NCBI GenBank assembly: GCA_038045425.1
Contig: JBBSYD010000032.1
Location: 36,417 to 100,416 of the forward strand
Source: Nanobdellota archaeon
Lineage (GTDB): Archaea; Nanobdellota; Nanobdellia; Pacearchaeales; GW2011-AR1
Direction of reading: 5' to 3'
Length of the DNA: 64,000 bases
Below are positions 5,288 through 60,328 of this stretch, piece after piece (position 1 is the stretch's first letter; every line of letters starts with the position of its first letter). The position numbers and the translations under genes are program-made. The notes beneath the pieces were generated by a model. The model did no database searches, had not been told where the DNA came from, and was given only the letters and a program-made list of their open reading frames with translations.

Positions 5288-6094
5288 ATGCATAAAAAGA
5301 GTGAAATAATATTTAGATTAAAAGAGTTAGAAAAGGAATTAGGAAGAAGACCTGTAAAAACAGATAGTCCTTCGCTTTATACCTTGTCAAGAAAATATTT
5401 TGGTACTTGGAATAATATGATGACTGAAGCAGGATATCAATGTAAATTATTTCAAATTCCTGTAACTCCTAAAGAGATTACTTCAGATTTAAGTTATTTT
5501 TTAGGATTAATGTCTACTGATGGGCACATACAAGTAATAAAACAAAGATGGCTGTACCGTGTTATGATGTATACTAGCGAAAAAGAAGAAGTAGAAATGA
5601 TATTAAATATTATTAAAAAGTTGTTTAGTTATACTGCTTCAGTTAGAGCAAGAAAAACAGGATTTTCTAAAAGACCAAATTATGAAATATACATATCTTC
5701 TAAAAAGATTGCATTATTTTTAAATTCGTTAGGAATTCCGATAGGAGCTAAATCCTATAATCTTTTAGTTCCTAAGATGTTCTTTGAGAATAAGCAAGAA
5801 TATTTTTGGGATTATTTAAGGGGAGTCTTTGATGGAGATGGTTCAATTGTTTTTAGTAATAATAATTTTAGCTTTAAAATCTCATCTGGTTCAGTTAGAT
5901 TTCTTGAGGGAATAAATAAGATTCTTATAGAGAAAGGATTTAAGAATTTTAAGATTTCTAAACAAGATGAGTATGTTTGGATTCTAAGAACAAATATAAA
6001 GGAAAATATTAAACAACTATATTCTTGTATTTATAATAATTCTTCGTTTTTTTATCCTCGAAAACAGTTAAAATGGTCTAAGCAGTATATTTAA
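5288..6094 (+). CDS. LAGLIDADG homing endonuclease (double motif) with N-terminal HEAR-like domain
   Basis: LGLMSTDGHI and LRGVFDGDGSI are two LAGLIDADG-type motifs. N-terminal YFGTWNNMMTEAGY resembles the homing-endonuclease-associated repeat. Confidence 0.7.
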   Translation: MHKKSEIIFRLKELEKELGRRPVKTDSPSLYTLSRKYFGTWNNMMTEAGYQCKLFQIPVTPKEITSDLSYFLGLMSTDGHIQVIKQRWLYRVMMYTSEKEEVEMILNIIKKLFSYTASVRARKTGFSKRPNYEIYISSKKIALFLNSLGIPIGAKSYNLLVPKMFFENKQEYFWDYLRGVFDGDGSIVFSNNNFSFKISSGSVRFLEGINKILIEKGFKNFKISKQDEYVWILRTNIKENIKQLYSCIYNNSSFFYPRKQLKWSKQYI

Positions 6095-6111
6095 AAATGT
6101 AAGTTTTTACA

Positions 6112-6271
6112 TAATTACATACCCTCCGTAGCTCAATGGCAGAGCGCCCGGCTGTAGTTAATATAACTAGCACAGACTTTCCATATGGAAACAGGATGAA
6201 GTGCGAACAGAGCATTTTCGTTAGAAAATAGCAGAACCCGGGCTACCCAAGTTCGATTCTCGGCGGGGGGA
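6112..6271 (+). tRNA. tRNA-Tyr (anticodon GTA) with an 89-nt intron after position 37 (intron about 6148..6236)
   Basis: Acceptor ccctccg/cgggggg with C1-G72 (archaeal Tyr identity). U8A9, D-arm gctc-aatggca-gagc, anticodon arm cccgg-ctgtag[intron]c-ccggg, T-arm ccaag-ttcgatt-ctcgg (one mismatch), discriminator A. Confidence 0.7.
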
Positions 6272-14540: not shown

Positions 14541-15344
14541 TTACATATTTCTTCTGCGTTCCACTTCTCGCATACAAGCTTGCTTTTTGCTATTGAACAT
14601 ATCATCTATTTTTCCTATTGGATAATTTCCAATGTCCATTCCAAATGAAAGGATTGTATCTGCGATTGCATGTAATTCTTTTTCAAATTCTTCTATTTCT
14701 TCTAGACAAAACATATAATCTGTTGAAACTCCTAATTTTAGATAATGAAAACTTGTTTTATTAGGAAGAATATTTTTCTTTTTATGAAGAAGAAAGTTGT
14801 AGAAAAGGGCTTGACGTTCAAAGCTTTTGTCTTTACTCACACTATTACTTGTTTTGTAATCTAGAATAACGTGGTGTTTGTGAATTTTATCCGTTGCCTG
14901 AAGGTCTATTATTCCTTTTATTCCTATCTTTATATTTTCATTTTCCTTAAGAGGAAAAGTTATTGTTTCTTCAGTTATATGATTTTCGTGTTGGTCAATT
15001 ATGTCTATTCCTTTAATCATAGCATGAATATATTCCATAGGATTTAGGAGATTGCCGTAAATGTCTCCGTGAATATGCAGATTTTGTTTTTCCCATTTTT
15101 TTAGTAAGTGAGAGTATGCTTCGTCTCTATCTAATTCTTTTTTTGCATATTTTTCTAGACATTCGTGAACTATTCCTCCTGAAAGCCCATAGCAAACTGG
15201 AACTGGAGTGTCATCTGGAACTTTGGCAATATATTTTAGATAGAATAACAGAGGACTTTGATAATAGATGTTTAGACTGGAGGGAGATAAATTTAAGGAA
15301 ATTTTACTTTCTCTCTTGGAGGCACCCTCTTTTTCTAATTCCAT
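14541..15344 (-). CDS. PD-(D/E)xK nuclease superfamily protein (RecB/Cas4-like, DUF83-type)
   Basis: N-terminal SPSSLNIYYQSPLLFYLKYI is RecB/Cas4-like. GIIDLQATDK....HHVILDYKTS fits a D...D/ExK core. No clean Cys cluster. Confidence 0.5.
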   Translation of the reverse strand: MELEKEGASKRESKISLNLSPSSLNIYYQSPLLFYLKYIAKVPDDTPVPVCYGLSGGIVHECLEKYAKKELDRDEAYSHLLKKWEKQNLHIHGDIYGNLLNPMEYIHAMIKGIDIIDQHENHITEETITFPLKENENIKIGIKGIIDLQATDKIHKHHVILDYKTSNSVSKDKSFERQALFYNFLLHKKKNILPNKTSFHYLKLGVSTDYMFCLEEIEEFEKELHAIADTILSFGMDIGNYPIGKIDDMFNSKKQACMREVERRRNM

Positions 15345-37631: not shown

Positions 37632-37654
37632 GTTATTTATAGTATTAATATTAT

Positions 37655-38887
37655 TTATATCTTTGCTTCCATCTCAACAATAAAGTCAGGTTTAATTCCT
37701 CTACAAAACATTTCCATAATTACACAGCAGATATTATGGCAAATTACTTTACATAAAACCTCATTTACTTGAGCGTTCCATTTCTTAGAACGAACAGAAT
37801 CGCCAAACTTAGATTTTATCATATACACCGAGGTCTCCGCGTTTGACCTCTGGTGATATGATTGTAAAAATTCCTCATTGTGTAAAGCAAAATAATGATA
37901 AAGTCTTTTCCAGATTCCACCTTTTCGACTTGGAGTAGAATTTATCTTAAATGGAATAAATGCCTTAGTTCCACTATTTTCTATTAACTCTAAATTATCC
38001 CTTGATAAGTAGGCTTTATCCGCACTTAATTCTTGCATATCAAAGAACTCTTTAGCTGTTTGATATAATTGTTTAAGCTGTGGGCAGTCATTATCAAATT
38101 CAGAAGTTATCTTAACGCTGGTAATTCCATTTGTAATTGTTCCAGTAATGAAATGACATTTAACCCATTTTCTTGAACTTATGGCTTTTCCATGCTTGAA
38201 TGAATACCATCTTTGAAAATTAGAAGTTCCAAATCCCGTGCTGTCTATGGCAAATTTCCTATCAATCTCTTTTAGAGGCAAGGCAGTGATTGTTACTAAT
38301 TGGCTAAGTAAATCGGTTAATTCTTCTTTATTGAAATAATCTGACATAGAACTTCTTGGTGTGATACTTTCTATGAAGTTACTTGATTTTGCCTGTTCCA
38401 TATCTGACGTGAATCTTCTACTTGAAAAAGTGGAATAAACTTTGAAAATCATAGAATAAATAGTATCTCTCAAAGAATTTTTAGGTTTACCAAAAGTATA
38501 AGGTCTCTCTTGTATTTTGCTTGTTAAGTCTGCTAGGAGCTTCATAAACAACTCTTTCTCTTTCGTTTGAGCTAGATTATAGTTATGCCAATCTTGAGCG
38601 TAGGTGACCTTCTTAGTAGCGGTTATAGTCACATTACCTTGCTTGTCTACTTCGTGAGTTACTATAAACTCAACTGCCCAAATATGTTTACACTTACATC
38701 CTCTCTCTTTATGGTCTTTGCAATTACATGAAGTATTATCTCCTCTGCTCTTAACAAAGTAAAATCCTGCTCCAGACTGGCTTGGAACTTTCCATCTACC
38801 TTTTTCATCTTGAACTATTCTTGAAGTCTGAGCTATTACTAAGCCTCTTTGTTTTCTTACTTCGATTGGATTATATTGTGTTTCCAT
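37655..38887 (-). CDS. DDE transposase (IS4/IS5-like DDE_Tnp_1) with N-terminal SWIM zinc finger
   Basis: CNCKDHKERGCKCKHIW is a SWIM finger (CxCx(n)CxH). The DDE candidates are AIDSTGF, LSADKAY and RSNAETSVYMIKSKFG. Confidence 0.7.
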   Translation of the reverse strand: METQYNPIEVRKQRGLVIAQTSRIVQDEKGRWKVPSQSGAGFYFVKSRGDNTSCNCKDHKERGCKCKHIWAVEFIVTHEVDKQGNVTITATKKVTYAQDWHNYNLAQTKEKELFMKLLADLTSKIQERPYTFGKPKNSLRDTIYSMIFKVYSTFSSRRFTSDMEQAKSSNFIESITPRSSMSDYFNKEELTDLLSQLVTITALPLKEIDRKFAIDSTGFGTSNFQRWYSFKHGKAISSRKWVKCHFITGTITNGITSVKITSEFDNDCPQLKQLYQTAKEFFDMQELSADKAYLSRDNLELIENSGTKAFIPFKINSTPSRKGGIWKRLYHYFALHNEEFLQSYHQRSNAETSVYMIKSKFGDSVRSKKWNAQVNEVLCKVICHNICCVIMEMFCRGIKPDFIVEMEAKI

Positions 38888-41358: not shown

Positions 41359-41540
41359 GGGAATTAAACCTAAGGTTTAGGATACATACTTTCCTGTCTT
41401 CGTGAATGTCGGAAGAAAATTGTGAAAACTTTTGCTAAAAAATAATTTAAATCAGAATTTTAGGTAAATCTATATTTATTATATATGTCCAATAATTGGA
41501 TAACCATAATCATTAAATAATCTTTTTTTGAGTAATTTTC

Positions 41541-41957
41541 ATGAATAATATAGAGTTAGTATTACTTCGACATGAAGATGAATATTTGATAAATATTTTT
41601 GTTTTGAGGGTTATTGGAGAGGGAGATAAAATAAAACAAAAGGTTCTTTATGTTGAGTCTAATCCAGTTGGAGCACCTCAAATTTTTCCAATTTGTTGGA
41701 TGAATATGAATTTTGATTCTTCTTGGAATCATTTTTATCAAAAAGATGGAAAAGTGGTCGATTATAAAATGACTCGTGAAGATGCAGTCACTCATGCAGA
41801 AAAAATGATTAGAGATAGTGCTGCTAATTATATCCAAAAAAGGTCAGGAGAATTTGGAAAGATTACATTAGTTGACAATTTATCTCATCCTTCTGGTGGA
41901 GAAACCAATTTCAATCATAGATTCTGGTATACACCTGTTTGGTTCCCTGAAATTTAA
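41541..41957 (+). CDS. hypothetical protein
   Basis: 138-aa ORF. Confidence 0.4.
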   Translation: MNNIELVLLRHEDEYLINIFVLRVIGEGDKIKQKVLYVESNPVGAPQIFPICWMNMNFDSSWNHFYQKDGKVVDYKMTREDAVTHAEKMIRDSAANYIQKRSGEFGKITLVDNLSHPSGGETNFNHRFWYTPVWFPEI

Positions 41958-42233
41958 AGGCTTTAAACTCCATAGTTCACTGCCTCTTTTTTGAACTTAA
42001 AACGCCATAAACCTAAAATGGAGTTGATAGTAGAGGAGCTAAATAATTCTTACTGATAATCTAGTGATTAGATTTAATTTATTTTTACATTTAAATCAAA
42101 ATCCATTTAGAGCATTCAATGAATATTAATTAAATATTCTATTGATGAATTATATAATTAGGGAGGATTCATATAAATTAAATATATCCTTATTTATAAT
42201 CTTATTTTTAAACTGCAGGAGATTTAATTTTCA

Positions 42234-42584
42234 ATGATAAAAAAATTATTAGATTATTTGAGTGGACTTTTAGTTTTGGGAGAAGGATTTAGAGCGCCGG
42301 AGATATCAGGCATTCCTCTCGAAGAAATAAGGAAATATGATTTAAGTCAGTTAAATTTAGTTTTACCAAATTTGATTAATGATTTTAGAGGACAACCATT
42401 TATTGAGAGCGAATTGATGTATCCTAAGTTAGCTTTGGCATTGAGTCGATATGAAGATCTTACTTCTGGAATGTATGTTCAAATAAATAGCAAAACTAGA
42501 AAGATAGAATGGCCCACTCCAGAAGAATTAACGATTCTGGATAGACTGAAAAGTAAACTTGAAGATAAACTGAATGGTAACTAA
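42234..42584 (+). CDS. hypothetical protein
   Basis: 116-aa ORF. Confidence 0.4.
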   Translation: MIKKLLDYLSGLLVLGEGFRAPEISGIPLEEIRKYDLSQLNLVLPNLINDFRGQPFIESELMYPKLALALSRYEDLTSGMYVQINSKTRKIEWPTPEELTILDRLKSKLEDKLNGN

Positions 42585-42633
42585 AACTGCGAGGAAGGAA
42601 GTTTTAAATAGACTTTTTAATCTTGAAAGTTAA

Positions 42634-42748
42634 GCGCTAGTAGTTTAGTGGTAAAACGGCTCGTTGCCAACTCTAGGAGTCTAAAGAACTACAATTGTTT
42701 AGACTAGGTAAAAACGAGCAGTCTCGAGTCCGATTCTCGACTTGCGCA
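42634..42748 (+). tRNA. tRNA-Gly (anticodon GCC) with an intron of about 44 nt at or next to the anticodon loop
   Basis: Acceptor gcgctag/cttgcgc (one U-U mismatch), D-arm gttt-agtggta-aaac, anticodon stem gctcg/cgagc separated by about 44 nt, loop ttgccaa, T-arm tcgag-tccgatt-ctcga, discriminator A. Confidence 0.6.
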
Positions 42749-43290
42749 TAAAATTAATTATTGATTTATTAACAATAGAGATTCTATAAATTCAAAACAT
42801 TTTTCTACTGCTACAATACTAAGTGCGATAAATAATCCAAAGGATAAATTTTTGTCTAATCCTCTTATGCCTACTAGATAAGTTAAACCAAAGATTAGTA
42901 TTAATGAAATTAAAAATACCCATAATTTAGCCTCAACTTTAGTTATCTTCATTAAAGGTTAAATAATTTGATTATTATAAGCTTTTGTTTACTAGAATAA
43001 AAAATTATAAATCGCTAAGATTATTATAATTATCATCATTAAAATTCCTAGTTTTTTAAGAAATTGAACAAACTCTCTATCTTCTAGTATAATCCCTTCT
43101 TTATATGAATAAGAACGTTCATATCTCTCTTTTTCTTTGCGTCTTATTTTTTCTGATTTTTTTTGTTTTCTTTTATCTATCTTGATCATTCGCATATAAT
43201 CATTAGCTCCGTAATCGTTGCCCATATATTTCTGAATCCCATTATTTATTTAAATCTGTCTTTTTATAAATAAATTAAGCTAGAGAATAC

Positions 43291-43533
43291 TTATTCTATA
43301 TTCACACGAATTTTAATACCTTCTGCTGATTTTACATAATAGGTTCCTTTATTATGCTTCTTTCCAGTTGATTTTTCTATTTCTTTTTTTGTCCATTTAA
43401 TACTCGGGCTTTCTTCAGGATAAAACATAACTAAAAGTCGGTCTATAAAATCTATGTTTGTAATTCTTTTAACTTTCATTCCTAGATGAATTAAACCATC
43501 TTCGCCAACAAAGCAACCATTATACTCAGCCAT
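43291..43533 (-). CDS. hypothetical protein
   Basis: 80-aa ORF. Confidence 0.3.
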   Translation of the reverse strand: MAEYNGCFVGEDGLIHLGMKVKRITNIDFIDRLLVMFYPEESPSIKWTKKEIEKSTGKKHNKGTYYVKSAEGIKIRVNIE

Positions 43534-44299
43534 AATAATGTACTTTTTAGTAACTTATATTACTTTCTATATTTATAAAAAGATAGTAGGAATAATTAAA
43601 AACAATGCATTCTCTTAAGATATGTGACTTTTCAGTTTTTTATTAATAAAATTCAAAGAACCATTGAAATTCTGTGTATCATTAAAGATAATCGCTCTCA
43701 TTTTTAAAGGAGGGAGAGATATCCAGTAAAGGAACACCTCTCCCTGTTATTCTATTAAGATTTATAGGATAAACTTATATATAAATATTTGTTTGGAAAG
43801 ATAATGTGCACTAATCTTGTTACTAATACTACTGCTATTTGACATTTTTGTTAAATTGATTTGCAATCATTAAAACCATAAAACAGGTATAAAAAATGAT
43901 TAAATCCTATTTGTTGCTCTTAAATACTTTCTTGCATTTTCCTCAAAATTGTCTCCAAATAGTTTTCTGAATATTTCATTAGTCGCTTTCAATTGAGATT
44001 CTATTAGTATCCTTTGTTGTTCAAACAAGGACTTATCTAAAAGAAGTTTTTCGGCATAAAGTTTCACAAACTCTGAATCTGATATCTCTAAAGTCATGAT
44101 TTATCTAAGAGGAGTTTGTATTTATAACTTTCTAACAAGTCGGGGAGAATGTTTATTAATATGATAAATTATTTGGATACTTAGGAAGATAGTTGCGTAT
44201 TTCTTCTAAGATAAAGAGAATTTGAGCCACAGTAAGCTGAGGAATATTTACTCAAAATGTAATGAATGGGTTTATAAACCGCCTAAAAAGAAAAATTAT

Positions 44300-44668
44300 A
44301 TGACTAAAGCATTACTTGGATTGCATACGAAAGCTATTGCGGTACTTACGGAGGCGTGTCTGCAAAGGAAGGGATATGAAACAGAACAGGTTAAAACTCC
44401 TGTGGAAATGTCAGCGAGAGCAAGAACTGGAGAATATAGTTTGCATATTATGGATTTGAACTTGGGAGTTTCTGGTGCCACAGATATAACTCCTGGAAGA
44501 GAAGTTTATGATTTAGTTAGAGATAGAGTTGGAAGAGGAGAAGCATTATTTTTGGGAATTTCTGGAAGCGTTGAAACTGTAGAATTAGCAGAAAGAGAAA
44601 GAATTCCGGCAATATTAAATACTAACTTATTTAGATGGATAGCTCAATTGCCAATTGTTAAAGCTTAA
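44300..44668 (+). CDS. possible receiver-like (CheY-like) domain protein
   Basis: An Asp in HIMDLNL sits where the receiver phospho-acceptor would be. Weak call. Confidence 0.3.
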   Translation: MTKALLGLHTKAIAVLTEACLQRKGYETEQVKTPVEMSARARTGEYSLHIMDLNLGVSGATDITPGREVYDLVRDRVGRGEALFLGISGSVETVELAERERIPAILNTNLFRWIAQLPIVKA

Positions 44669-44689
44669 AAACTTAAATTTCTGTTTGAA

Positions 44690-44938
44690 TTGATGGGAAG
44701 AAGAAAAACGTTTTTGAAAATACCTGAAGTGGCTGTTATTAAATGCCCTAGTTGTGGAGCTAAGAGTAAAAGAAAAGTGCCTTTGGATGCTTCGCCACAA
44801 TATTTTGATTGTGATAAATGTTCTGCTCACATTCGGACGCCAATTACGGGATGTTGTATAATTTGTGCTTTTACGAATAAAAAATGTGTGCCTAGTTTGA
44901 AAATGGAAGCAATGGCTAAGGGTTTAGAATTAAGGTGA
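44690..44938 (+). CDS. small Cys-rich zinc-finger protein
   Basis: CPSCG...CDKC...GCCIICAF. Confidence 0.4.
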   Translation: MMGRRKTFLKIPEVAVIKCPSCGAKSKRKVPLDASPQYFDCDKCSAHIRTPITGCCIICAFTNKKCVPSLKMEAMAKGLELR

Positions 44939-45514
44939 TGGACCTACTCCTCTGAGTCCTTTGAAATAGAGAGATGCTTCTGGAGTATCAATACCTAGGT
45001 GTGCTAACATCGCATCGAAATCTAATTTTCCGTTTTCAAATAATATAATTTCGGCTTTTCTTTTTAGTTTTTCGTCTAATCTGCCATAATTTTCCTCTAA
45101 ATTCGATAGAGAAAATCTAATAATTCTATGTGCTAGAGAAATGTATTCTTTTGCTCTCATAAAATATGAACCTGGAACGGGTTTAGATAATTCTTCTGTT
45201 ATAGTCCCTACGGTTGCAAGAGTTTCTATACCTTGAACTCTGGAATCTAGAAATCTCTCAGCTATTTCTACTTGTCTTATGGAATTGACTTTTCTAGGGA
45301 AATTATTTCTTAAAATATTAAGATAATAGCGAGTGTTATCCAGTCTTTCTTCTTCAGTAGATAAGGTTTCTAGTTCTCGGCCCAAGATTCTAGCATTTGA
45401 TAGCCAGGAAGAATAATCTTGTTTGCTTGACAAGGGATTTAATTTACTTGCAAGCCTTGCTCTGGTGTTCAATACTATTTGAAAAAAATGTGAATGGGGG
45501 GTGGAGGTTGCCAT
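44930..45514 (-). CDS. hypothetical protein
   Basis: 194-aa ORF. Confidence 0.4.
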   Translation of the reverse strand: MATSTPHSHFFQIVLNTRARLASKLNPLSSKQDYSSWLSNARILGRELETLSTEEERLDNTRYYLNILRNNFPRKVNSIRQVEIAERFLDSRVQGIETLATVGTITEELSKPVPGSYFMRAKEYISLAHRIIRFSLSNLEENYGRLDEKLKRKAEIILFENGKLDFDAMLAHLGIDTPEASLYFKGLRGVGPSP

Positions 45515-45565
45515 GTGTTTTTAGAAAAGGGCAAGGTTTAAAAGATTATTGTTTCAAGAGATTTT

Positions 45566-45796
45566 ATGGGTTTAATTAAGGTTGCTTTTAATTTTGATGA
45601 ACAATCTTTAGCAGAATTAGAAAAAATTAGACTAAGATATGGTTTGAAAACAGTGGAAGAAGCAATAATTACTTCTTTGAGCGTATATCGTCGAGTTATT
45701 AAAGAATATTTACAAGGATATGAAGAATTAGCTGTGAGAAATCCAAAAACGGGTGAAGAAAGAACATTTACGCCTGAGGCTATACTTTGGGGATAA
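45566..45796 (+). CDS. small hypothetical protein, possibly ribbon-helix-helix
   Basis: 76 aa, MGLIKVAFNFDEQSLAELEKIRLRYGL. Confidence 0.4.
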   Translation: MGLIKVAFNFDEQSLAELEKIRLRYGLKTVEEAIITSLSVYRRVIKEYLQGYEELAVRNPKTGEERTFTPEAILWG

Positions 45797-45864
45797 ATTA
45801 GAGCAATAGTTTCTAGAGATCTGGGCAGAAATGTTTATAAGACTAAAAATAAGCAGATAATTAT

Positions 45865-45935
45865 GGCCCATTAGGCTAATGGTAGACCGGTTCGTTTACA
45901 CCGAACATGCGGAGGTCCGATTCCTCCATGGGCCA
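45865..45935 (+). tRNA. tRNA-Val (anticodon TAC)
   Basis: Acceptor ggcccat/atgggcc (perfect), anticodon arm gttcg-tttacac-cgaac, T-arm ggagg-tccgatt-cctcc, discriminator A. The D-stem is imperfect. Confidence 0.65.
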
Positions 45936-45938
45936 CTT

Positions 45939-46517
45939 TTATTTTTTATAATTGCCTGGAAATATAAAATAGGCTGCAGTTCCATCATTTTTTAGGAAAG
46001 GAACTTTATATCCTTCTGCGTCTCTTTCAACTCTATCCTTTAATGGGAAAGGGAATTCAAAAGGTCTCCTGGGTAAATTACTTTCTGCAAGAGAATCAAG
46101 ATTAAATATTTGACCTACTCCAGTTTTAATAGTTTTCATCCTGAATAAATCTCCTTGTTTTTCATATTTGAATTCTACAAACAAATGAGATTCTGGTGAA
46201 ATGTCTATACCTAACCAATAAACTTGCCCTCGCTTATCCGGTCTTTTTATATCCATAGATAATTCCATTCCAGAAACAATGCCTCGATCATAATCAACTA
46301 CCAAGCAAGTCTTATTTGTTAATATTGGTTGGGCATTTCTTTCTTCAGACTGTCTTTTTAGAAAATTATGAGTAAAGATCCATCTATGTTCAACATCGCT
46401 AAATAGAAGAATGTCTAAACGCGCTTCTCCCTGTGGAAGACTTATCTTGTATTCTCTTGGAATTTTTCTTCTCATGTTATTTTCAGAATTAGGCTTCTGA
46501 GGTTGCCATCGCCTCAA
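45939..46517 (-). CDS. hypothetical protein, sole ORF between tRNA-Val and its partial downstream duplicate
   Basis: 192-aa ORF with no recognisable integrase motifs. Confidence 0.45.
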   Translation of the reverse strand: MRRWQPQKPNSENNMRRKIPREYKISLPQGEARLDILLFSDVEHRWIFTHNFLKRQSEERNAQPILTNKTCLVVDYDRGIVSGMELSMDIKRPDKRGQVYWLGIDISPESHLFVEFKYEKQGDLFRMKTIKTGVGQIFNLDSLAESNLPRRPFEFPFPLKDRVERDAEGYKVPFLKNDGTAAYFIFPGNYKK

Positions 46518-46604
46518 AAATCTATAAATTAGTTCATTTTAAAACCTTTCGAATTTTATCCTCTTGTAGATTACAGAACAAGTATACCCTTTTAGTTAGA
46601 GTCA

Positions 46605-46655
46605 TTTACACCGAATGGTCGGGAGTTCGATTCCTCCATGGGCCACTTTTATTTT
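46605..46655 (+). repeat. att-like partial duplicate of the tRNA-Val(TAC) 3' half plus 3' flank
   Basis: tttacaccgaa and cgattcctccatgggccacttttatttt are identical to 45895..45905 and 45918..45945. The middle 12 nt differ. Confidence 0.65.
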
Positions 46656-47893: not shown

Positions 47894-48829
47894 TCACCCA
47901 ATAATCTTTTTGAGGGCTTTATATTCTCGGATAAATAATTTTATTGTTGGTTTAAGATCTTGCCTTTTTTGATATGCTTGTAAGGATTCATAATATTCAC
48001 TTCTATTTTTTAAATCAATGTTCATTGGAGGCAGATTGTGTTTAATTAGAATGTTATTTAGAAGAATTCTTCCGACTCGTCCATTTCCATCTACAAATGG
48101 GTGAATATTCTCAAATTGGTCATGAACTACTGCTGCCAAAATTAGTGCAGGATAGCTATTTCTATTCTTTTCATACCATACAACTAGCTCTTTTAATAAA
48201 AACACAACTCTAAACTGCGGGGCTCCCTCGTGTAATATTTCCCCTAAACTATTTGCAACTACTACTTCCTCTCCAGGTTTTCTAAATTGCCCAGCAAACT
48301 TTTTAGAATTCTTAAAAACAGTTCTATGAATTTCTTTAATTAATTCAAGTGAAATATGCTCTTTAGTTTTTCTAATATGTTTTATAGCTTCATTTACTCC
48401 ATATGCTTCGGCAATGTCATTTTTTGGTTTGTCGGGCCATTTATCATGTTCAAGAACTCCCTTAACTTCAACGCTATTTAGTTCACTTCCTTCAATAGCA
48501 TTAGTATTGTATGTAAACAACTCGGAAAAAGTCTGCCATTGCTCTTCCGATAGATGATTTATGCTAATAGGTATACTTTTCTCAATTTTTTTTACAAAAT
48601 CGATATCTTTGATAGACAGTTCAAATTTTAAGGGATCTTTGATGATATTATACTTTCTAATATCTTCAATAATTAGAACTTCTGCTTTAGCTTTTCTTTC
48701 TTCCAATAATTTTTCATCTAAGTCAGCTCCAAGAAACTTTCTTATTTTATGGACTTTGCTTCCTTCTCTAAATGAATGAGATAAATAATATTTTATCTTC
48801 TTTCCCAATTTTCTTTTCTCTAAATGCAT
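47894..48829 (-). CDS. Fic/DOC family protein
   Basis: HPFVDGNGRVGR is the canonical Fic motif HPFx[DE]GNGR. Confidence 0.8.
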   Translation of the reverse strand: MHLEKRKLGKKIKYYLSHSFREGSKVHKIRKFLGADLDEKLLEERKAKAEVLIIEDIRKYNIIKDPLKFELSIKDIDFVKKIEKSIPISINHLSEEQWQTFSELFTYNTNAIEGSELNSVEVKGVLEHDKWPDKPKNDIAEAYGVNEAIKHIRKTKEHISLELIKEIHRTVFKNSKKFAGQFRKPGEEVVVANSLGEILHEGAPQFRVVFLLKELVVWYEKNRNSYPALILAAVVHDQFENIHPFVDGNGRVGRILLNNILIKHNLPPMNIDLKNRSEYYESLQAYQKRQDLKPTIKLFIREYKALKKIIG

Positions 48830-48985: not shown

Positions 48986-50287
48986 ATGATGACTAAGTTC
49001 AAAGCGTTGGGATTATCGGATGGAATGATTGAGGCTATTCGGGGAGCTCATTTTACAGAGCCGAGCGAGATACAGGAGAAAACTATTCCTCTTGTTCTTT
49101 CTGGGAAAGATGTTATTGGTAAATCTGCTACTGGCTCGGGGAAAACTCTTGCATTTGGTGCTGGAATTATTGAGAAAGTGCAGAGATATCATGGAATTCA
49201 GGCATTGATATTAACTCCTACTAGAGAATTGGCTGAGCAGATTACTCAAACATTAAAAAAGTTTTCAGGATATAAGGGATTGAATATTGATGAGGTTTAT
49301 GGAGGAGTTTCCATGGGTCCACAAATATCTAAGTTGAGATATGCTGAAATTGTTGTGGGAACGCCAGGAAGAATTCTAGACCATCTGGAAAGAAGAACGC
49401 TGAGATTGAATCAAGTGAAGTATTTAGTATTAGATGAAGCAGATAGAATGTTAGACATGGGATTCATAAAAGATGTTGAAAAAATTATTCAAATGTGCCC
49501 TGTTGAAAGACAGACTTTACTTTTTTCTGCAACTATTTCTGATGATATTGAGCATATCTCTAAAAAGTATATGATTAATCCGGTTAAGATAACTGTTGGA
49601 GACCAGGTCGATCCTGCTCAGTTATATCAAAAGTATTATGATGTTCCTCAGGAAATGAAGTTTTCTCTTCTTGCTTATTTATTGAGATTGGAAAGAAAGG
49701 GAGTAGTAATGGTATTTTGTAATACCAGAAGAAATGTAGACCATGTGACTAGAGCGTTATATCAGAATGGAATTAATGCCCTTGCAATTCACGGAGGATT
49801 AAGCCAAAATAGAAGAAATGAAACTATGGAAGCATTTCATTCTAGAAAAGCATTGATTCTTGTTTGTACTGATGTGGCTGCAAGAGGATTGGATATAAAA
49901 GATGTTTCACATGTTTATAATTTTGATTTGCCGAATAGTGGGACAGATTATATTCACAGAATAGGAAGAACTGCAAGAGCGGGAAAGAATGGAATTGCAA
50001 TAAGTTTTGTAGGAAGTGGAGAACATGGGGAATTTAGAAATATTTCAAGAGATAAGAATTTAGAAATTGAAAAAGTTATGGTTCCTGAAAATATTCATGT
50101 TCTTCCTCATGTGATAAGTGCACCTTCAAGAGGAACAATGGGAAGAGGAAGAAGGGGAGGAGGAAGACCAGTGAGAGGGCATTATGGGGGAAATAGAAAC
50201 TTCCAAAGTGAAGCACAAAAGTATGGACGAGCGAAGAAAAGAACGGATGGGCCGCATAGACGTAAGAAGAATAAGAGAAGATATTGA
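48986..50287 (+). CDS. DEAD-box ATP-dependent RNA helicase with C-terminal RG-rich tail (paralog of 30799..32208)
   Basis: Q motif, GKSATGSGKT, DEAD, SAT, HRIGRTAR. Strong overall similarity to the other DEAD-box gene. Confidence 0.85.
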   Translation: MMTKFKALGLSDGMIEAIRGAHFTEPSEIQEKTIPLVLSGKDVIGKSATGSGKTLAFGAGIIEKVQRYHGIQALILTPTRELAEQITQTLKKFSGYKGLNIDEVYGGVSMGPQISKLRYAEIVVGTPGRILDHLERRTLRLNQVKYLVLDEADRMLDMGFIKDVEKIIQMCPVERQTLLFSATISDDIEHISKKYMINPVKITVGDQVDPAQLYQKYYDVPQEMKFSLLAYLLRLERKGVVMVFCNTRRNVDHVTRALYQNGINALAIHGGLSQNRRNETMEAFHSRKALILVCTDVAARGLDIKDVSHVYNFDLPNSGTDYIHRIGRTARAGKNGIAISFVGSGEHGEFRNISRDKNLEIEKVMVPENIHVLPHVISAPSRGTMGRGRRGGGRPVRGHYGGNRNFQSEAQKYGRAKKRTDGPHRRKKNKRRY

Positions 50288-50291
50288 TTTG
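50236..50291. repeat. 56-bp direct repeat, copy 1 (3' end of the DEAD-box helicase gene plus 4 bp)
   Basis: gaaaagaacggatgggccgcatagacgtaagaagaataagagaagatattgatttg recurs at 53724..53779 with 2 mismatches. Confidence 0.8.
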
Positions 50292-50351
50292 ATGCTACTT
50301 AAGAATACAATCTACCAAAGGGAAATATTAATTTAATAAGGATTTCTAAAT

Positions 50352-50876
50352 TTAGGATTTTCGTGCTCGCTGAACATAAAGAGAATATATTTTATTCTCA
50401 ATTGTTGCAAGTTCCTCGACTCTTTTTAAAAATTCACCAGGATTACAATTAAATCCTACTCGAAGACAAGGAGGTTTTATATCAAATTGTGCCGCTTCAT
50501 CGTATAATCCCGCATTCATCTGCCTTGAATTATGCCAAGATAAAGGAATCGATGTTCTAAAACCGCTTCTGTGGGCGTTATCGATAATCTTCATTAATTT
50601 AGAATCCTTAGCAACCCCTAACAATTCATCAGGAAGAGGATTTAATATATCTGCAATTATTATTCCTTGATTCCCAACAAATGAAAAATAACTTCCTCCA
50701 GATAGTAGCTTGCCTCTCAATTTTAATTGATAATTATCAGATGTGGCCGCGCTTAAAAGAAGGGGTTTACATAATTTAGTGAATCTTTTTGTTCCATCAT
50801 ATACTTCTTGGTCTAAACTATCAAGTTTTTCTCTATCGATTAATGCTAGGAATTTTTGAGGGGTAATATTTCTCAT
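50352..50876 (-). CDS. hypothetical protein
   Basis: 174-aa ORF. Confidence 0.4.
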   Translation of the reverse strand: MRNITPQKFLALIDREKLDSLDQEVYDGTKRFTKLCKPLLLSAATSDNYQLKLRGKLLSGGSYFSFVGNQGIIIADILNPLPDELLGVAKDSKLMKIIDNAHRSGFRTSIPLSWHNSRQMNAGLYDEAAQFDIKPPCLRVGFNCNPGEFLKRVEELATIENKIYSLYVQRARKS

Positions 50877-50970
50877 TGTTTATTTTAAAATAGGGACTAT
50901 AAAAAGATATATGCATTTATATTCTAATTAGATAATTAGTAGTTCTTGTGTCCACATCGAAAGACTTGTG

Positions 50971-51032
50971 AAGCTCCCCACAGCAAGCTTTTGCCTGAGG
51001 GCAAATCCGTCTGCAGACGGAGTGGGGCATCA
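50971..51032. other. GC-rich multi-hairpin element; a second copy of the 14-nt core ccccacagcaagct lies at 51141..51154
   Basis: Outer stem cccca/tgggg. Inner hairpins ttgcc-tgag-ggcaa and ccgtc-tgca-gacgg. The second site also forms a cccca...tgggg stem-loop. Confidence 0.35.
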
Positions 51033-51175
51033 AAAGAATAAAACCTTGTTAGCTTATGCAACAACTTAACTTCATCATACATCAGATAATTATTTCTCTT
51101 AAATTATTTTATTTCTAAATTCTATCCCTGCTTTGCTTTATCCCCACAGCAAGCTATGGGGTATTACGGATAATA

Positions 51176-51541
51176 ATGTCATTACAAATCAAAAGCATTG
51201 AAGATTTAAAAGAAAGATTAAAAACAGATTCTGGAAAAGTTTTACTAAGAGCAATAAATGATGCTGAATTAGAATATTTATTAACGAGTGGTTCGGAAAA
51301 TTTCACTTTTAACAAAGGTACAAATTATGAGATAGGTTATGAGAATTTTATAGGAAATATGGTTGCTAGAGAGGTTAGAAGAAGAAGAAGTGGAACTATA
51401 ATATTAATCCCATTAACTGAATATTCTTCCCATTTTGAAGAAAGAACTTGGCCAGTTTGTAAAGAAACTTTTAGAGGCCAAGTAGAGGTGTTTAATTTAG
51501 AAGACAGAGGGGAAATAGAGCTTAAAGAGTATTTAGGTTAG
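51176..51541 (+). CDS. hypothetical protein
   Basis: 121-aa ORF. Confidence 0.4.
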   Translation: MSLQIKSIEDLKERLKTDSGKVLLRAINDAELEYLLTSGSENFTFNKGTNYEIGYENFIGNMVAREVRRRRSGTIILIPLTEYSSHFEERTWPVCKETFRGQVEVFNLEDRGEIELKEYLG

Positions 51542-51573
51542 GATGTATAGATGAAGTTCATAAAATGTAGATT

Positions 51574-51954
51574 TTATTTTTTAAGAATTTTATATTTAAC
51601 TCCAAAGGGTTTCTTACTATCTATCTGAAATAGGTTAAGCTGAGCGTCACATAATAATTTTCTAGGGTTATGGGAAAAATCTTCAAAAAAACCCATAGGT
51701 TCTTTTTTAACCCACTGCTCTATAATTCCATAATAAACTACCTCAAATTTCTTTCCAAATTTTTCATCAGGTAATCCATCCTTATCTTCATCAATAATTT
51801 CAAATAGTTCTACTTCGAAGAATTCAGAGTCAGTTGTTCCTCGGTCTTTTCCTATTAAATCAATATTTACTTTGTCTAGAAAATCTTTTGTTTTAGGCAA
51901 AACTCTAAAATTTACAGAATACCCTTTATATTTTATAATTTTTTCTTCATTCAT
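51574..51954 (-). CDS. hypothetical protein
   Basis: 126-aa ORF. Confidence 0.4.
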   Translation of the reverse strand: MNEEKIIKYKGYSVNFRVLPKTKDFLDKVNIDLIGKDRGTTDSEFFEVELFEIIDEDKDGLPDEKFGKKFEVVYYGIIEQWVKKEPMGFFEDFSHNPRKLLCDAQLNLFQIDSKKPFGVKYKILKK

Positions 51955-52357
51955 TAAATAAACAATAGTTATAGGTTAATATATTTACCTCTTAAATCAT
52001 AGAAAATATGAACTGACCTGTTCGTAAATATTCTATCATTTTTTTCTATTGGGCTGAATTTGGTCTGAGCGTTTAACACTTTTGACCAAAACAAAATCGT
52101 GATTTATTGTGGCGTTTATACAAGGTACTTAAATAGTTAAGAGTAGTTTAAGATCGTGAGAATCGACCTATATAATCACAAAGAAAGATATCTAAATTGG
52201 AAGAATAATGTTAAATCTATAGAGAATGCAACAAAATAAAATGGTGGAGTGACGTCCTAAAGTGATATAAAATAATAAAGACCTACCTTTTGAATTCTCT
52301 ACCTTGCGATGGAAGTTTAAGTTAAAAAGCCCAATTTATAATTGAGGTTGTTCTTAT

Positions 52358-52423
52358 AAAGTGCTACAAAAAATGTATCACTTAGAAAGTAAAGTGCTAC
52401 AAAAAATGTATCACTTAGAAAGG
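52358..52423. repeat. tandem duplication, 2 x 33 bp (aaagtgctacaaaaaatgtatcacttagaaagt)
   Basis: Two adjacent near-identical units immediately upstream of the likely ATG (52433) of the AAA+ gene. Confidence 0.75.
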
Positions 52424-52432
52424 TTTAAAAAC

Positions 52433-53719
52433 ATGAAAGATTACCCTAAAAATATGAAAAAAGAAGAATTAGACTTTGTCTTATTTGAGCAACAGAAAGA
52501 TTTTGAGGAAGAAGAACCACTTGTAGAAAGAGAACTCACGAAAAAAGCATTGGAATTAATCAATTTGAAACTACCTATAATTGTAACTGGAGTAAGAAGA
52601 TGTGGTAAGTCTTCCTTATTGAAGATAATTAAGAATAAATTATCTCTGAAAAATAAGGAATATTTATATATAAATTTTAACGATGAACGATTTATAGGAT
52701 TTTCTACAGAAAACTTTCAGATAATAACTGACTTTATAGTTGAACAAAAATATAAAGAAAAGTGTTTTCTATTCTTAGATGAGATTCAAGAAGTATCTGG
52801 ATGGGAAAAGTGGATTGACCGAATAAAATCAAAATATCCTATTTTTATTACTGGTTCAAATTCTAGATTATTGAGTAAAGAAATATCTACTATTTTGACT
52901 GGTAGATCGCTAAGCATTGGTCTTACTCCATTTAATTTTACGGAGTTCTTATTATCGAAAAATTTTAACCTAAAAGATTGGAAAATTGATAAGCAAAAGC
53001 AAATTTCTATTCTAACAGAATTTAAAGAGTACTTTGAGATTGGAGGATTCCCAAAAAGAATTTTATCTGGACAAAATATAATCTTGAAAGAGTTATATGA
53101 CCAAATTATTTATAGAGATATTATAAATCGATTTCCAAAAAGCAATGCTAAATCTATAAAAGAAATTTCAGTATACTTATTGTCAAATCCTTCTTCTTTG
53201 ATAAGTGTAAGAAATATGTCTAAAATAACAGGCGTAAAGAACCTCTTAACAGCGAAAGCAATTATAGATTCTTTTGAGAATGCATTTTTATTCTTCTTTA
53301 TCAATAAATTTGATTATTCGGTAAAAAAACAAACACAAAATCCTCGAAAAGCTTACTGTGTTGATAATGGATTTATCGCCTCGCTAGGATTTAGAATGTC
53401 TGATGATAAAGGTAAACTTCTTGAAAATTTAGTAGCTATAGAACTTAAAAGAAGAGAGAAAGAGATATTTTACTATTCAGATAAAAATGAATGTGACTTC
53501 TTAATACGAGAAAATAATAAGATAACTCAAGCAATTCAGGTTTGTTATGATGTAAACGAACAAAACAAAGAAAGAGAATTTAAAGGGTTGGTTGATGCAA
53601 TGAACAAATTTGATTTAAAAGAAGGAATAATTCTAACATACACTCAACAAGAAGAATTAGACTTTGAAGGTAAAAAAATTAAAATGATTCCTGTCTGGAA
53701 GTGGTTACTTATAAAATGA
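52433..53719 (+). CDS. AAA+ superfamily ATPase with C-terminal DUF4143-type domain
   Basis: GVRRCGKSSL (Walker A) and LFLDEIQEV (Walker B), with the usual archaeal ATPase/DUF4143 architecture. Confidence 0.65.
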   Translation: MKDYPKNMKKEELDFVLFEQQKDFEEEEPLVERELTKKALELINLKLPIIVTGVRRCGKSSLLKIIKNKLSLKNKEYLYINFNDERFIGFSTENFQIITDFIVEQKYKEKCFLFLDEIQEVSGWEKWIDRIKSKYPIFITGSNSRLLSKEISTILTGRSLSIGLTPFNFTEFLLSKNFNLKDWKIDKQKQISILTEFKEYFEIGGFPKRILSGQNIILKELYDQIIYRDIINRFPKSNAKSIKEISVYLLSNPSSLISVRNMSKITGVKNLLTAKAIIDSFENAFLFFFINKFDYSVKKQTQNPRKAYCVDNGFIASLGFRMSDDKGKLLENLVAIELKRREKEIFYYSDKNECDFLIRENNKITQAIQVCYDVNEQNKEREFKGLVDAMNKFDLKEGIILTYTQQEELDFEGKKIKMIPVWKWLLIK

Positions 53720-53723
53720 CTAG

Positions 53724-53779
53724 GAAAAGAACGGATGGACCACATAGACGTAAGAAGAATAAGAGAAGATATTGATTTG
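53724..53779. repeat. 56-bp direct repeat, copy 2
   Basis: 54 of 56 identical to 50236..50291. Would encode MTRKRTDGPHRRKKNKRRY if translated. Confidence 0.8.
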
Positions 53780-53979
53780 TTCTTGGTCTGAGCGTTTTCT
53801 TATTTCACGATGACAAAGTTTTTTAGAATTCGGGCGTTGAACTTTCAAGTATCTTAATTCTAACTTTAACAATCGTTCCAGGTTTAAGACTTTTTTCTAT
53901 TAACTTGGATATGACTATAATTGCCTGATTTCCGTGTTTCGCTATTTTCTTAATTAAATTGAATTGTTTATTATTCATT

Positions 53980-56011: not shown

Positions 56012-56023
56012 TTTGATTATTGG

Positions 56024-56096
56024 TAGCAGGTGTTGGAATTGAACCAAACATTTCCAGGATGTAATCCTGGCGGGCTAACCATTACCCCAACCTGCC
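56024..56096 (-). tRNA. tRNA, predicted Val (anticodon TAC), with encoded CCA at 56021..56023
   Basis: Reverse complement reads ggcaggt-tg-gggt-aatggtta-gccc-g-ccagg-attacat-cctgg-aaatg-tttgg-ttcaatt-ccaac-acctgct-a-cca. This gives G1-U72 wobble and one T-stem mismatch. Confidence 0.55.
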
Positions 56097-60188: not shown

Positions 60189-60328
60189 GACAGGGAACTC
60201 TGTACAAAACATGATACAACCAACAGAATTCCATGTATCTCTATATATTAATTATTTTTTATTGGTTTAAATAAATTTATATTCTAATTAGATAATAATT
60301 ATAAACTGACTGGATTTGCATTTAATGG

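What the first reader, a model, noticed from the sequence alone, without database searches (positions are those of the whole stretch)
50236..53779. About 3.5 kb islet flanked by 56-bp direct repeats that duplicate the 3' end of a DEAD-box helicase gene
The last 52 nt of the helicase CDS (encoding ...KRTDGPHRRKKNKRRY) plus 4 nt recur, 54/56 identical, right after the AAA+/DUF4143 ATPase gene. Integration into the 3' end of a gene with reconstitution of the C-terminus is typical of integrative elements. The enclosed segment holds four ORFs, a duplicated GC-rich hairpin motif (ccccacagcaagct, twice), a 2 x 33-bp tandem repeat upstream of the ATPase, and an internal 15-bp repeat ttggtctgagcgttt (52060 and 53783) that may mark a nested boundary.
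Basis: seen in the sequence. Interest (0 to 1): 0.6.

Follow-up and report, generated by a model that had tools for sequence, protein, structure and literature searches.

The report
Recombinase-less defence islet at helicase end
A 3.5-kb stretch of foreign-looking DNA sits just after a helicase gene of a tiny groundwater archaeon, bracketed by two copies of the gene's last 56 bases; it carries a candidate anti-virus gene but no enzyme that could move it, so it is best read as a stranded or helper-dependent insertion.

Summary
The 56-nt direct repeat (50236-50291 / 53724-53779, 54/56) brackets four ORFs. The left copy holds the last 52 nt and stop codon of a DEAD-box helicase gene.

The host is a DPANN (Pacearchaeota-like) archaeon from Hainich groundwater. 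All independent assemblies of this population carry the islet. Six loci carrying three helicase relatives (69-78% identical) carry none of its ORFs and no duplicated helicase end. No near-identical empty site was found.

No recombinase exists in the islet or among the 29 of 30 window ORFs of at least 200 aa that were profile-scanned.

The right-hand gene is an AAA_14+DUF4143 ATPase, PADLOC candidate defence PDC-S01. The 2x33-bp repeat is an operator-like pair conserved upstream of ten related genes. In about 10-18% of sampled loci such ATPase genes are tightly bracketed by 35-145-nt repeats, against 2.5-3.6% of control ORFs. The clearest cases copy the end of a neighbouring gene or tRNA.

The 15-mer suggests two nested events: an ATPase-only cassette with a 74-nt repeat, later split by the left module.

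Best reading: a remnant, or trans-mobilisable cassette, of Campbell-type integration that delivered a defence gene. It is a new member of a known kind and moderately interesting.

The parts
48986..50287 (+). DEAD-box RNA helicase gene, the target. Its last 52 nt lie in the left repeat.
   Evidence: Pfam DEAD 1.2e-51 and Helicase_C 1.9e-33. Homologues are DPANN helicases.
50236..50291 (.). Left 56-nt direct repeat (attL-like), containing the helicase stop codon.
50352..50876 (-). ORF174, an orphan small protein. Not a recombinase.
   Evidence: No convincing family hit: none in Pfam or PHROGs, one sub-threshold NCBIfam hit. Only 3 homologues, found in housekeeping contexts elsewhere. AF2 pLDDT 79, with a weak YbjN/chaperone-like match, E about 0.02.
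50916..50936 (+). Promoter-like 21-mer with a TATA box, identical to the sequence upstream of tRNA-Val(CAC).
   Evidence: Only two matches in the window, at 50916 and 60276; 0 shuffles reached two.
50965..51037 (+). GC-rich three-way hairpin (stem CCCCAC/GTGGGG closing two tetraloop hairpins). Putative small RNA.
   Evidence: MFE -26.6 kcal/mol, z -2.25. No Rfam family. Seen only in this population.
51142..51161 (+). Second hairpin (CCCCA/TGGGG) presenting the same AGCAAGCT loop, 15 nt upstream of the ORF121 start.
51176..51541 (+). ORF121, an orphan.
   Evidence: No family hit. No tblastn match in any fetched locus.
51574..51954 (-). ORF126, member of a small family of about 125-aa proteins of unknown function.
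   Evidence: 54 representatives at E<=1e-3. AF2 pLDDT 95, no PDB match.
52060..52074 (.). Internal copy of the 15-mer that follows the right repeat. Proposed right end of an original 74-nt left repeat, now separated from the 56-mer by the left module.
   Evidence: (D10). The nesting itself is inference.
52357..52422 (+). Two 33-nt units, each holding the imperfect palindrome GTGCTAC-N7-GTATCAC, just upstream of a TTTAAAAA box. Operator-like pair of the ATPase gene.
   Evidence: Conserved at the same distance from the ATG in nine aligned DPANN cassettes in different contexts and a tenth seen in L242. Only these two matches in the window.
52454..53719 (+). AAA+ ATPase with a C-terminal DUF4143 (predicted PD-(D/E)XK nuclease) domain; PADLOC candidate defence PDC-S01.
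   Evidence: AAA_14 1.9e-33 and DUF4143 1.1e-16. PDC-S01 1.4e-106. 5555 homologues at E<=1e-20.
53724..53779 (.). Right 56-nt direct repeat (attR-like), a non-coding displaced copy of the helicase end.
53783..53797 (.). Outer copy of the 15-mer, 3 nt beyond the right repeat.

Best explanation
**What it is.** The repeats mark a lineage-specific, composite insertion immediately after the stop codon of the helicase gene. I read it as what remains of one or two Campbell-type integrations. A circular incoming DNA carrying a copy of the helicase 3' end recombined with the chromosomal gene. That left an intact gene end on one side and a displaced copy on the other.

**What catalysed it (inferred).** Either a tyrosine integrase supplied in trans or since lost, or host homologous or homology-facilitated recombination.

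**The cargo.**
- Right module: a self-contained unit made of a double operator, a promoter, and a PDC-S01 ATPase/nuclease gene. This is a candidate single-gene antiviral system.
- Left module: three orphan ORFs plus a promoter-equipped GC-rich small-RNA-like hairpin.

**Order of events (inferred from the 15-mer).** An ATPase-only cassette of about 1.7 kb came first, with a 74-nt repeat (56 + 3 + 15 nt). The 1.77-kb left module then split the left repeat.

**Present state.** The islet has no recombinase and no defined termini. It is fixed in its population. It could still be lost, tandemly amplified, or circularised by recombination between the repeats.

**Shown versus inferred.** Shown: the repeats, the gene content, the absence of a recombinase, absence from relatives, and recurrence of the same architecture around related ATPase genes. 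Inferred: the direction of the event, the enzyme, the two-step order, and the defence function.
For: **The repeat and its setting.**
- The repeat is real, and the left copy keeps the helicase intact.
- Six loci carrying three helicase relatives keep a conserved gene immediately upstream of the helicase: NIF3 in L009-L012, DHH in L007. They carry none of the four ORFs and no duplicated helicase end.
- GC and tetranucleotide composition are mildly atypical.
- A second recombinase-less islet lies in the same window. It holds ORF192 and is bracketed by a duplicated tRNA-Val 3' half that starts in the anticodon loop, which is the classic integrase signature.

**Precedent in the literature.** Archaeal integrated elements use 3'-distal regions of protein genes in 14 of 68 cases. 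Crenarchaeal att sites are 29-69 bp. Sites are re-used to form arrays (PMC6563490).

**The same architecture around related ATPase genes.**
- L095: 123 nt of an upstream gene's 3' end, 86% identical.
- L115: 144 nt of a convergent gene's end, 84%.
- L174: about 93 nt of the enolase end.
- L086: 3' 44 nt of tRNA-Arg.
- L038: tandem array of ATPase plus gene-end fragment.
- L239/L241: Acinetobacter plasmids.
- Sources.

**Displaced copies.** In L095 and L115 they keep reading frame and stop codon despite 14-16% divergence. This is expected if one copy came from an orthologue in a donor.

**Bracketing by repeats is enriched.**
- 16/91 ATPase genes against 8/222 control ORFs, p = 8e-5.
- After removing tandem paralogues and repeats inside the CDS: 8/83 against 6/239, p = 0.011.

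**The cassette core.** Homology between cassettes runs only from operator 1 to the stop codon, as expected for a cargo gene rather than a transposon.

**Cargo exchange elsewhere.** In Acinetobacter plasmids the same slot next to BREX-associated genes (WYL, DUF1819, DUF1788) holds either this ATPase or a Fic gene, so it behaves as an exchangeable hotspot cargo.
Against: - No integrase is present in the islet or among the 29 window ORFs of at least 200 aa that were profile-scanned. A tblastn with a related archaeon's integrase found nothing in the window.
- The repeat contains no inverted-repeat core of the kind tyrosine recombinases bind.
- No empty site in a near-identical genome and no circular junction were found.
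- Downstream synteny is not conserved among relatives, so 'absent in relatives' is weaker than a true empty site.
- Identical ATPase proteins sampled in 20-24 contigs each always sit in one context, so there is no sign of recent movement.
- The enrichment of bracketing repeats is modest, and some control ORFs show repeats too.
Confidence: 0.55

Rival explanations
1. The ATPase/nuclease gene is itself the engine of a minimal selfish cassette. Its PD-(D/E)XK domain would cut near the end of a target gene. The cassette would then be copied or joined in, with a long, variable duplication of the target end (homing-like or staggered-cut insertion). The operators would autoregulate it.
For: - The cassette often consists of the ATPase gene alone, spanning 1.35-1.9 kb between repeats.
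- In four loci the right repeat starts 0-7 nt after the ATPase stop: window, L062, L115, L073.
- Repeat lengths vary from 35 to 145 nt and targets differ between related ATPases.
- DUF4143 is classed as a PD-(D/E)XK fold (PMC3424549).
- The PDC candidates were predicted from genes embedded inside other defence systems (bioRxiv 10.1101/2024.01.29.577857, via PMC12988326). That is also what a self-inserting gene would look like.
Against: - The inserted segments have no conserved ends.
- Identical proteins never appear in two contexts.
- There is one copy in the window.
- Most family members (82-90%) have no bracketing repeats.
- Displaced copies look like diverged orthologous gene ends rather than fresh fill-in duplications.
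- No nuclease activity has been shown, and the usual catalytic lysine position reads QVC in the alignment.
Confidence: 0.12
2. Homologous or homology-facilitated illegitimate recombination alone produced the structure. A transferred DNA fragment from a related strain carried 'helicase 3' end + cargo'. It was anchored by homology in the helicase gene and joined illegitimately on the other side, duplicating the recipient's gene end. No mobile element is involved.
For: - No recombinase and no core-type site.
- Both repeat boundaries are sharp.
- A possible ATTTG microhomology lies at the two junctions of the left module.
- Diverged, frame-preserving displaced copies occur in L095 and L115.
- Hotspot-type cargo exchange occurs between conserved flanks in Acinetobacter.
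Against: - It requires the donor to have had the cargo next to the same gene already.
- 56 nt is a short anchor.
- The tRNA-Val islet in the same window has the anticodon-loop boundary typical of integrases.
- This overlaps with the best explanation, which leaves the enzyme open.
Confidence: 0.2
3. The repeat arose by a local duplication or rearrangement unrelated to gene transfer. The four ORFs would be old residents of the lineage.
For: - The islet is fixed in all sampled contigs.
- ORF174 homologues sit among housekeeping genes in other DPANN contigs.
- The composition shift is small.
Against: - None of the relatives has these ORFs after the helicase.
- The ATPase's closest relative (74%) lies beside Rep_1 and IS110 genes.
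- The same gene-end-duplication architecture recurs around this gene family in unrelated organisms.
- Slippage does not place 3.4 kb between copies.
Confidence: 0.08

Closest known systems
Archaeal integrated mobile elements inserted in the 3'-distal region of protein-coding genes (Krupovic et al. 2019, PMC6563490)
   Same: - Direct repeats, one overlapping the gene's 3' end and stop codon.
- The repeat length lies in the 29-69-bp range reported for crenarchaeal elements.
- Re-use of one site by successive insertions.
   Different: - Those elements encode a tyrosine integrase or casposase and are usually more than 5 kb. This one has no recombinase and is 3.5 kb, possibly 1.7 kb originally.
- Those sites were verified with empty sites, which I could not find here.
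Cis-mobilisable elements (CIMEs) of streptococcal ICEs, and Acinetobacter pdif modules (from my own knowledge, not checked in the library)
   Same: Small cargo modules bounded by recombination sites, with no recombinase of their own, that depend on an enzyme supplied in trans.
   Different: - No related integrase or Xer-type site was identified.
- No pdif-like site was found in the one Acinetobacter ATPase locus checked, L239.
- The 56-mer has no inverted-repeat core.
- Mobilisation was not shown.
PDC-S01 candidate defence gene of PADLOC (PMC12988326; bioRxiv 10.1101/2024.01.29.577857)
   Same: The ATPase matches the PDC-S01 models at 1.4e-106 and has the AAA_14 + DUF4143 architecture. It lies near a SoFic-like Fic gene.
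   Different: - The function is untested for the family.
- I did not find the conserved double operator or the flanking gene-end duplications in the papers I located: 3 with 'DUF4143', 7 with 'PDC-S01', 8 with 'COG1373'.
Mobile endonuclease ORFs in fungal mitochondria that duplicate the C-terminus of the host gene (Allomyces atp6; from memory)
   Same: Intact hybrid gene end, then nuclease-type ORF, then displaced original gene end.
   Different: There the ORF is a proven homing endonuclease fused in frame. Here the ATPase is a separate gene with its own promoter, and no nuclease activity is known.

Membership tests
Site-specific integrative element (tyrosine-recombinase type) | Direct repeats (att) at both ends, one reconstituting the 3' end of the target gene | tested here: met
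   56 nt, 54/56 identical. The left copy holds the helicase's last 52 nt and its stop codon.
Site-specific integrative element (tyrosine-recombinase type) | Element-encoded integrase or recombinase | tested here: not met
   - No recombinase hit for any of the four ORFs in Pfam or NCBIfam, nor for the three small ORFs in PHROGs.
- AF2 models of ORF174 and ORF126 show no recombinase fold.
- No integrase among the 29 of 30 window ORFs of at least 200 aa that were scanned against Pfam.
- No split SSV-type fragments at the ends.
Site-specific integrative element (tyrosine-recombinase type) | Unoccupied site in related genomes | tested here: inconclusive
   Relatives with a 69-78% identical helicase lack the cargo and the duplication. 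Their downstream genes differ from each other, and no near-identical genome without the islet was found.
Site-specific integrative element (tyrosine-recombinase type) | Excision, seen as a circular junction or restored site | not testable with these tools
   This needs read-level data. The exact att pattern is absent from viral contigs.
Site-specific integrative element (tyrosine-recombinase type) | Core site with imperfect inverted repeats around an overlap region | tested here: not met
   No inverted repeat with arms of at least 5 nt and a 3-9-nt spacer in the 74-nt repeat plus flank. The first 56 nt are 73% purine on the + strand.
Transposon / insertion sequence | Transposase gene, terminal inverted repeats, short target-site duplication | tested here: not met
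   No transposase in the islet. No inverted repeat pairs its two ends. 56 nt is far beyond known target duplications. Related cassettes have no conserved termini.
PDC-S01 candidate defence system (PADLOC) | Match to the PDC-S01 profile with AAA_14 + DUF4143 architecture | tested here: met
   PDLC04787 at 1.4e-106 over residues 22-419. Pfam domains confirmed.
PDC-S01 candidate defence system (PADLOC) | Protection against viruses | not testable with these tools
   Validation is described as pending for most PDCs; no PDC-S01 test was found (PMC12988326).
Cis-mobilisable cassette (CIME / dif-module type) | Recombination sites flanking cargo, no recombinase, mobilised in trans | tested here: inconclusive
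   The first two features are met. Trans-mobilisation is not testable. Identical ATPase proteins always occur in one context.

The most novel reading that the evidence does not exclude
PDC-S01, reported as the fourth most common candidate 'defence system' of prokaryotes, would in part be a minimal mobile cassette: double operator, promoter, and ATPase-nuclease gene. It would insert beside or into the ends of genes and tRNAs with a long (35-145 nt) duplication of the target end. It would do so either through its own nuclease or by hijacking host recombination. The helicase islet would be one such insertion, later expanded by a second one.
Probability: 0.12. Interest if true: 0.8.

Novelty: new member of a known kind. 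Interest (0 to 1): 0.42.

Why it matters
**For this genome.** Even a roughly 1-Mb-class symbiotic archaeon acquires and keeps accessory defence genes at gene ends without keeping any integration machinery. The window holds three such lineage-specific additions:
- the helicase islet;
- the tRNA-Val islet;
- the Fic gene, which unlike the two islets has no flanking repeats.

**More generally.** The ATPase family is very abundant and its function is untested. Two things seen here are cheap to test at scale: a conserved double operator upstream of the DPANN cassettes, and a modest but significant tendency to sit between duplicated ends of neighbouring genes. If they hold, they would say how this gene spreads. 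They would also bear on whether 'embedded in defence loci' reflects defence or self-insertion.

Tried and rejected
- **Cryptic recombinase.** Profile searches of the islet ORFs (Pfam and NCBIfam for all four; PHROGs for the three small ORFs; PADLOC for all four), AF2 models with PDB fold search for ORF174 and ORF126, and tblastn with an integrase from a related aquifer archaeon all found nothing.
- **Split SSV-type integrase.** Rejected. The ATPase is full length, and ORF174 ends 61 nt from the repeat.
- **Third copy of the repeat or a larger element.** None in the window.
- **Empty site or polymorphism.** All long contigs with the exact helicase or the exact NUDIX neighbour carry the islet. 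Short Logan contigs stop inside the repeat exactly where a k=31 graph must branch, so they say nothing.
- **Episomal form.** The att pattern and the hairpin pattern are absent from viral contigs.
- **Known RNA family for the GC-rich hairpins.** None.
- **Conserved left module.** Rejected. ORF174 homologues do not travel with ORF121 or ORF126, nor with the ATPase.
- **Repeats flanking the Fic gene.** None.
- **Xer/pdif sites.** None around an Acinetobacter ATPase.
- **Solved-structure relatives of the ATPase.** None by sequence.
- **Synonymous mismatches as proof of a foreign gene end.** Rejected as proof. Mutation in the coding copy, or two G-to-A changes at third positions by chance (about 0.07), explains them equally.

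Full report
**1. Observation**

The region was read directly and scanned for repeats.
- The 56-nt direct repeat at 50236-50291 and 53724-53779 is 54/56 identical. Nothing similar occurs elsewhere in the window, and none is expected by chance.
- The left copy is the last 52 nt of a DEAD-box helicase CDS (48986-50287) plus 4 nt. The right copy begins 4 nt after the stop codon of an ATPase gene.
- The two mismatches are G-to-A changes at synonymous third positions. This is compatible with a foreign gene end, but also with later mutation (my estimate of chance is about 0.07).
- Separate assemblies from at least five samples carry the same gene order. Three of them (L001-L003) were aligned across the whole islet at 99.9-100% identity. 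It is not a misassembly.

**2. Organism and setting**

- The window has 31.7% GC and intron-containing tRNA genes.
- The helicase's relatives are Pacearchaeota/Nanoarchaeota MAGs, and the identical contigs come from Hainich aquifer well H43.
- In the helicase relatives (69-78% identical), the conserved gene immediately upstream is NIF3 (L009-L012) or DHH (L007). Downstream genes differ in each. None has any of the four ORFs or a second copy of its helicase end.
- In this window a Fic gene, SoFic-like in PADLOC, has also been added between NIF3 and the helicase. It has no flanking repeats.
- The islet is slightly AT-richer (0.293 against 0.317). Its tetranucleotide distance ranks 3rd of 122 windows.

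**3. Content**

*The ATPase.*
- It has AAA_14 and DUF4143 domains and matches PADLOC PDC-S01 at 1.4e-106.
- DUF4143 is listed among PD-(D/E)XK folds (PMC3424549).
- PDC-S01 is reported as the fourth most common candidate defence across prokaryotes and as enriched in archaea. DPANN genomes are reported as enriched in SoFic and multiple PDCs. Validation is described as pending for most PDCs, and I found no PDC-S01 test (PMC12988326).

*The small ORFs.*
- ORF174, ORF121 and ORF126 have no convincing family assignment.
- ORF174 has three homologues, all among housekeeping genes. Its model shows a weak YbjN/chaperone-like fold.
- ORF126 belongs to a small family. Its confident model matches nothing solved.

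*Recombinases.* No recombinase is present here or among the 29 of 30 window ORFs of at least 200 aa that were scanned against Pfam. A tblastn with an integrase from a related aquifer archaeon found nothing in the window.

**4. The non-coding features**

*The 2x33 tandem is not a boundary.*
- The pair AAGTGTTACAAAAAWTGTATCACTTT x2 is followed by a TTTAAAAA box about 25 nt before the ATG.
- It is conserved at the same position upstream of ten ATPase genes that are 55-74% identical and lie in different contexts.
- Homology between these cassettes starts at the first unit and stops at the stop codon.
- I read it as a double operator over the promoter. This is inference.

*The first GC-rich hairpin.*
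- It is preceded by a 21-mer identical to the one upstream of tRNA-Val(CAC). It is therefore probably a transcribed small RNA.
- It folds into a three-way junction and matches no Rfam family.

*The second copy of the 14-mer* forms a smaller hairpin presenting the same loop, just upstream of ORF121.

**5. Related loci**

With an alignment of ATPase homologues I fetched 80 genome loci, 80 metagenome loci and 48 viral loci.

*Cases where an ATPase gene sits between long direct repeats that copy the end of a neighbour.*
- L095: 123 nt of an upstream gene's 3' end.
- L115: 144 nt of a convergent gene's 3' end.
- L174: about 93 nt of the enolase 3' end.
- L086: tRNA-Arg 3' part.
- L052: tRNA-Val 5' half, with a decayed ISL3-like gene inside (my reading of the ORF translations).
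- L062: 42/42 nt, intergenic.
- L030 and L034: gene 5' ends.
- L038: tandem array.
- Sources.

*Statistics.*
- In an ad hoc test (1.2 kb upstream against 0.7 kb downstream), 16 of 91 ATPase genes and 8 of 222 control ORFs from the same loci were bracketed, p = 8e-5.
- After removing tandem paralogues and repeats inside the CDS, the counts were 8/83 against 6/239, p = 0.011.
- The enrichment is real but modest, and it is not exclusive to this gene.

*Displaced copies.* In L095 and L115 they keep frame and stop codon at 84-86% identity. This fits a copy that was a functional orthologous gene end in a donor.

*Acinetobacter plasmids.*
- The first Acinetobacter example I opened shows the pattern again: an HNH gene end, the ATPase, then a 72-76% identical copy of the HNH end.
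- The same slot next to BREX-associated genes (WYL, DUF1819, DUF1788) holds a Fic gene in another plasmid.

*Against active transposition.* Identical ATPase proteins seen on 20-24 contigs always have one context.

**6. The 15-mer**

- It lies 3 nt beyond the right repeat and also 379 nt upstream of the ATPase start. In register, 22 of 28 nt match.
- The simplest account has two steps.
  - First, an ATPase cassette arrived with a 74-nt repeat. The 1723-nt spacing lies in the 1.35-1.9-kb range of ATPase-only cassettes elsewhere.
  - Later, the 1.77-kb left module inserted between the 56-mer and the 15-mer of the left copy.
- This is inference only.

**7. Mechanism**

- The architecture is that of Campbell-type integration.
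- Two things speak for integrases: the literature precedent for gene-3'-end targets and att lengths (PMC6563490), and the tRNA-Val islet in the same window.
- Three things leave host homologous or homology-facilitated recombination as a serious alternative: there is no integrase, the repeat has no core-type symmetry, and related cassettes have no fixed ends.
- A self-mobilising ATPase-nuclease cannot be excluded, but nothing direct supports it.

**8. Verdict**

The 'integrative element' reading is partly supported as a recombinase-less remnant or cassette. The thing itself is a new member of a known kind. The family-wide pattern is a lead worth a systematic test.

Noticed in passing
window 45865-46655: A second recombinase-less islet. 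The 3' half of tRNA-Val(TAC), from the anticodon loop to 9 nt past the gene end (45892-45945), recurs at 46602-46655 (about 85% identical, imperfect T-stem). The two copies bracket a single orphan gene, ORF192 (45939-46517, minus strand).
   Followed up: partly
window 47894-48829: A Fic-family gene (PADLOC SoFic 8e-34, PDC-S04) lies between NIF3 and the helicase. Four relative loci have NIF3 directly next to the helicase, and one has DHH there. No flanking repeats.
   Followed up: partly
window 50916-50936 and 60276-60296: An identical 21-nt TATA-containing promoter-like sequence lies upstream of the GC-rich hairpin and upstream of tRNA-Val(CAC).
   Followed up: partly
window 45865-45936 and 56021-56096: Two tRNA genes are both called Val(TAC) but have very different sequences. 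One may be foreign or mis-assigned.
   Followed up: no
window 5288-6271: A LAGLIDADG/HNH-repeat homing-endonuclease-like ORF (5288-6094) lies immediately upstream of a 150-nt intron-containing tRNA (6122-6271).
   Followed up: no
window 34968-38887: A large N6-methylase-domain protein (887 aa) sits next to a DDE transposase. A PD-(D/E)XK nuclease (14541-15344) and an SNF2 helicase (11613-13463) lie further upstream. These are more accessory or defence-like genes in a small genome.
   Followed up: no
window 41400-45860: About 4.5 kb of small orphan ORFs plus an intron-containing tRNA (42634-42748) lie between the DHH gene and tRNA-Val. In relative L007 the DHH gene directly precedes the helicase. 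This may be another variable or integrated region.
   Followed up: no
L038 1-6200: An Aenigmarchaeota contig carries an array of three ATPase genes plus an ATPase 3'-end remnant at the contig start. Two of the genes are each followed by an 83-120-nt copy of the same gene-end-like fragment, at a period of about 1.55-1.7 kb. The third lies 2.8 kb further on, beyond an unrelated minus-strand ORF. The last 234 nt of the three genes are 91-95% identical.
   Followed up: partly
L239-L241 (Acinetobacter plasmids): A slot between an HNH-endonuclease gene and a DUF4236 gene, next to BREX-associated genes (WYL, DUF1819, DUF1788), holds either the PDC-S01 ATPase (225 plasmids match the query region, which spans the HNH 3' end to IS3; left end points vary) or a Fic gene with a small ORF.
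   Followed up: partly
L173 (contig with the closest ATPase relative, 74%): The ATPase lies beside a Rep_1 rolling-circle replication gene, an IS110 transposase and an Mrr-helicase fusion. This looks like an integrated plasmid or mobile island.
   Followed up: no
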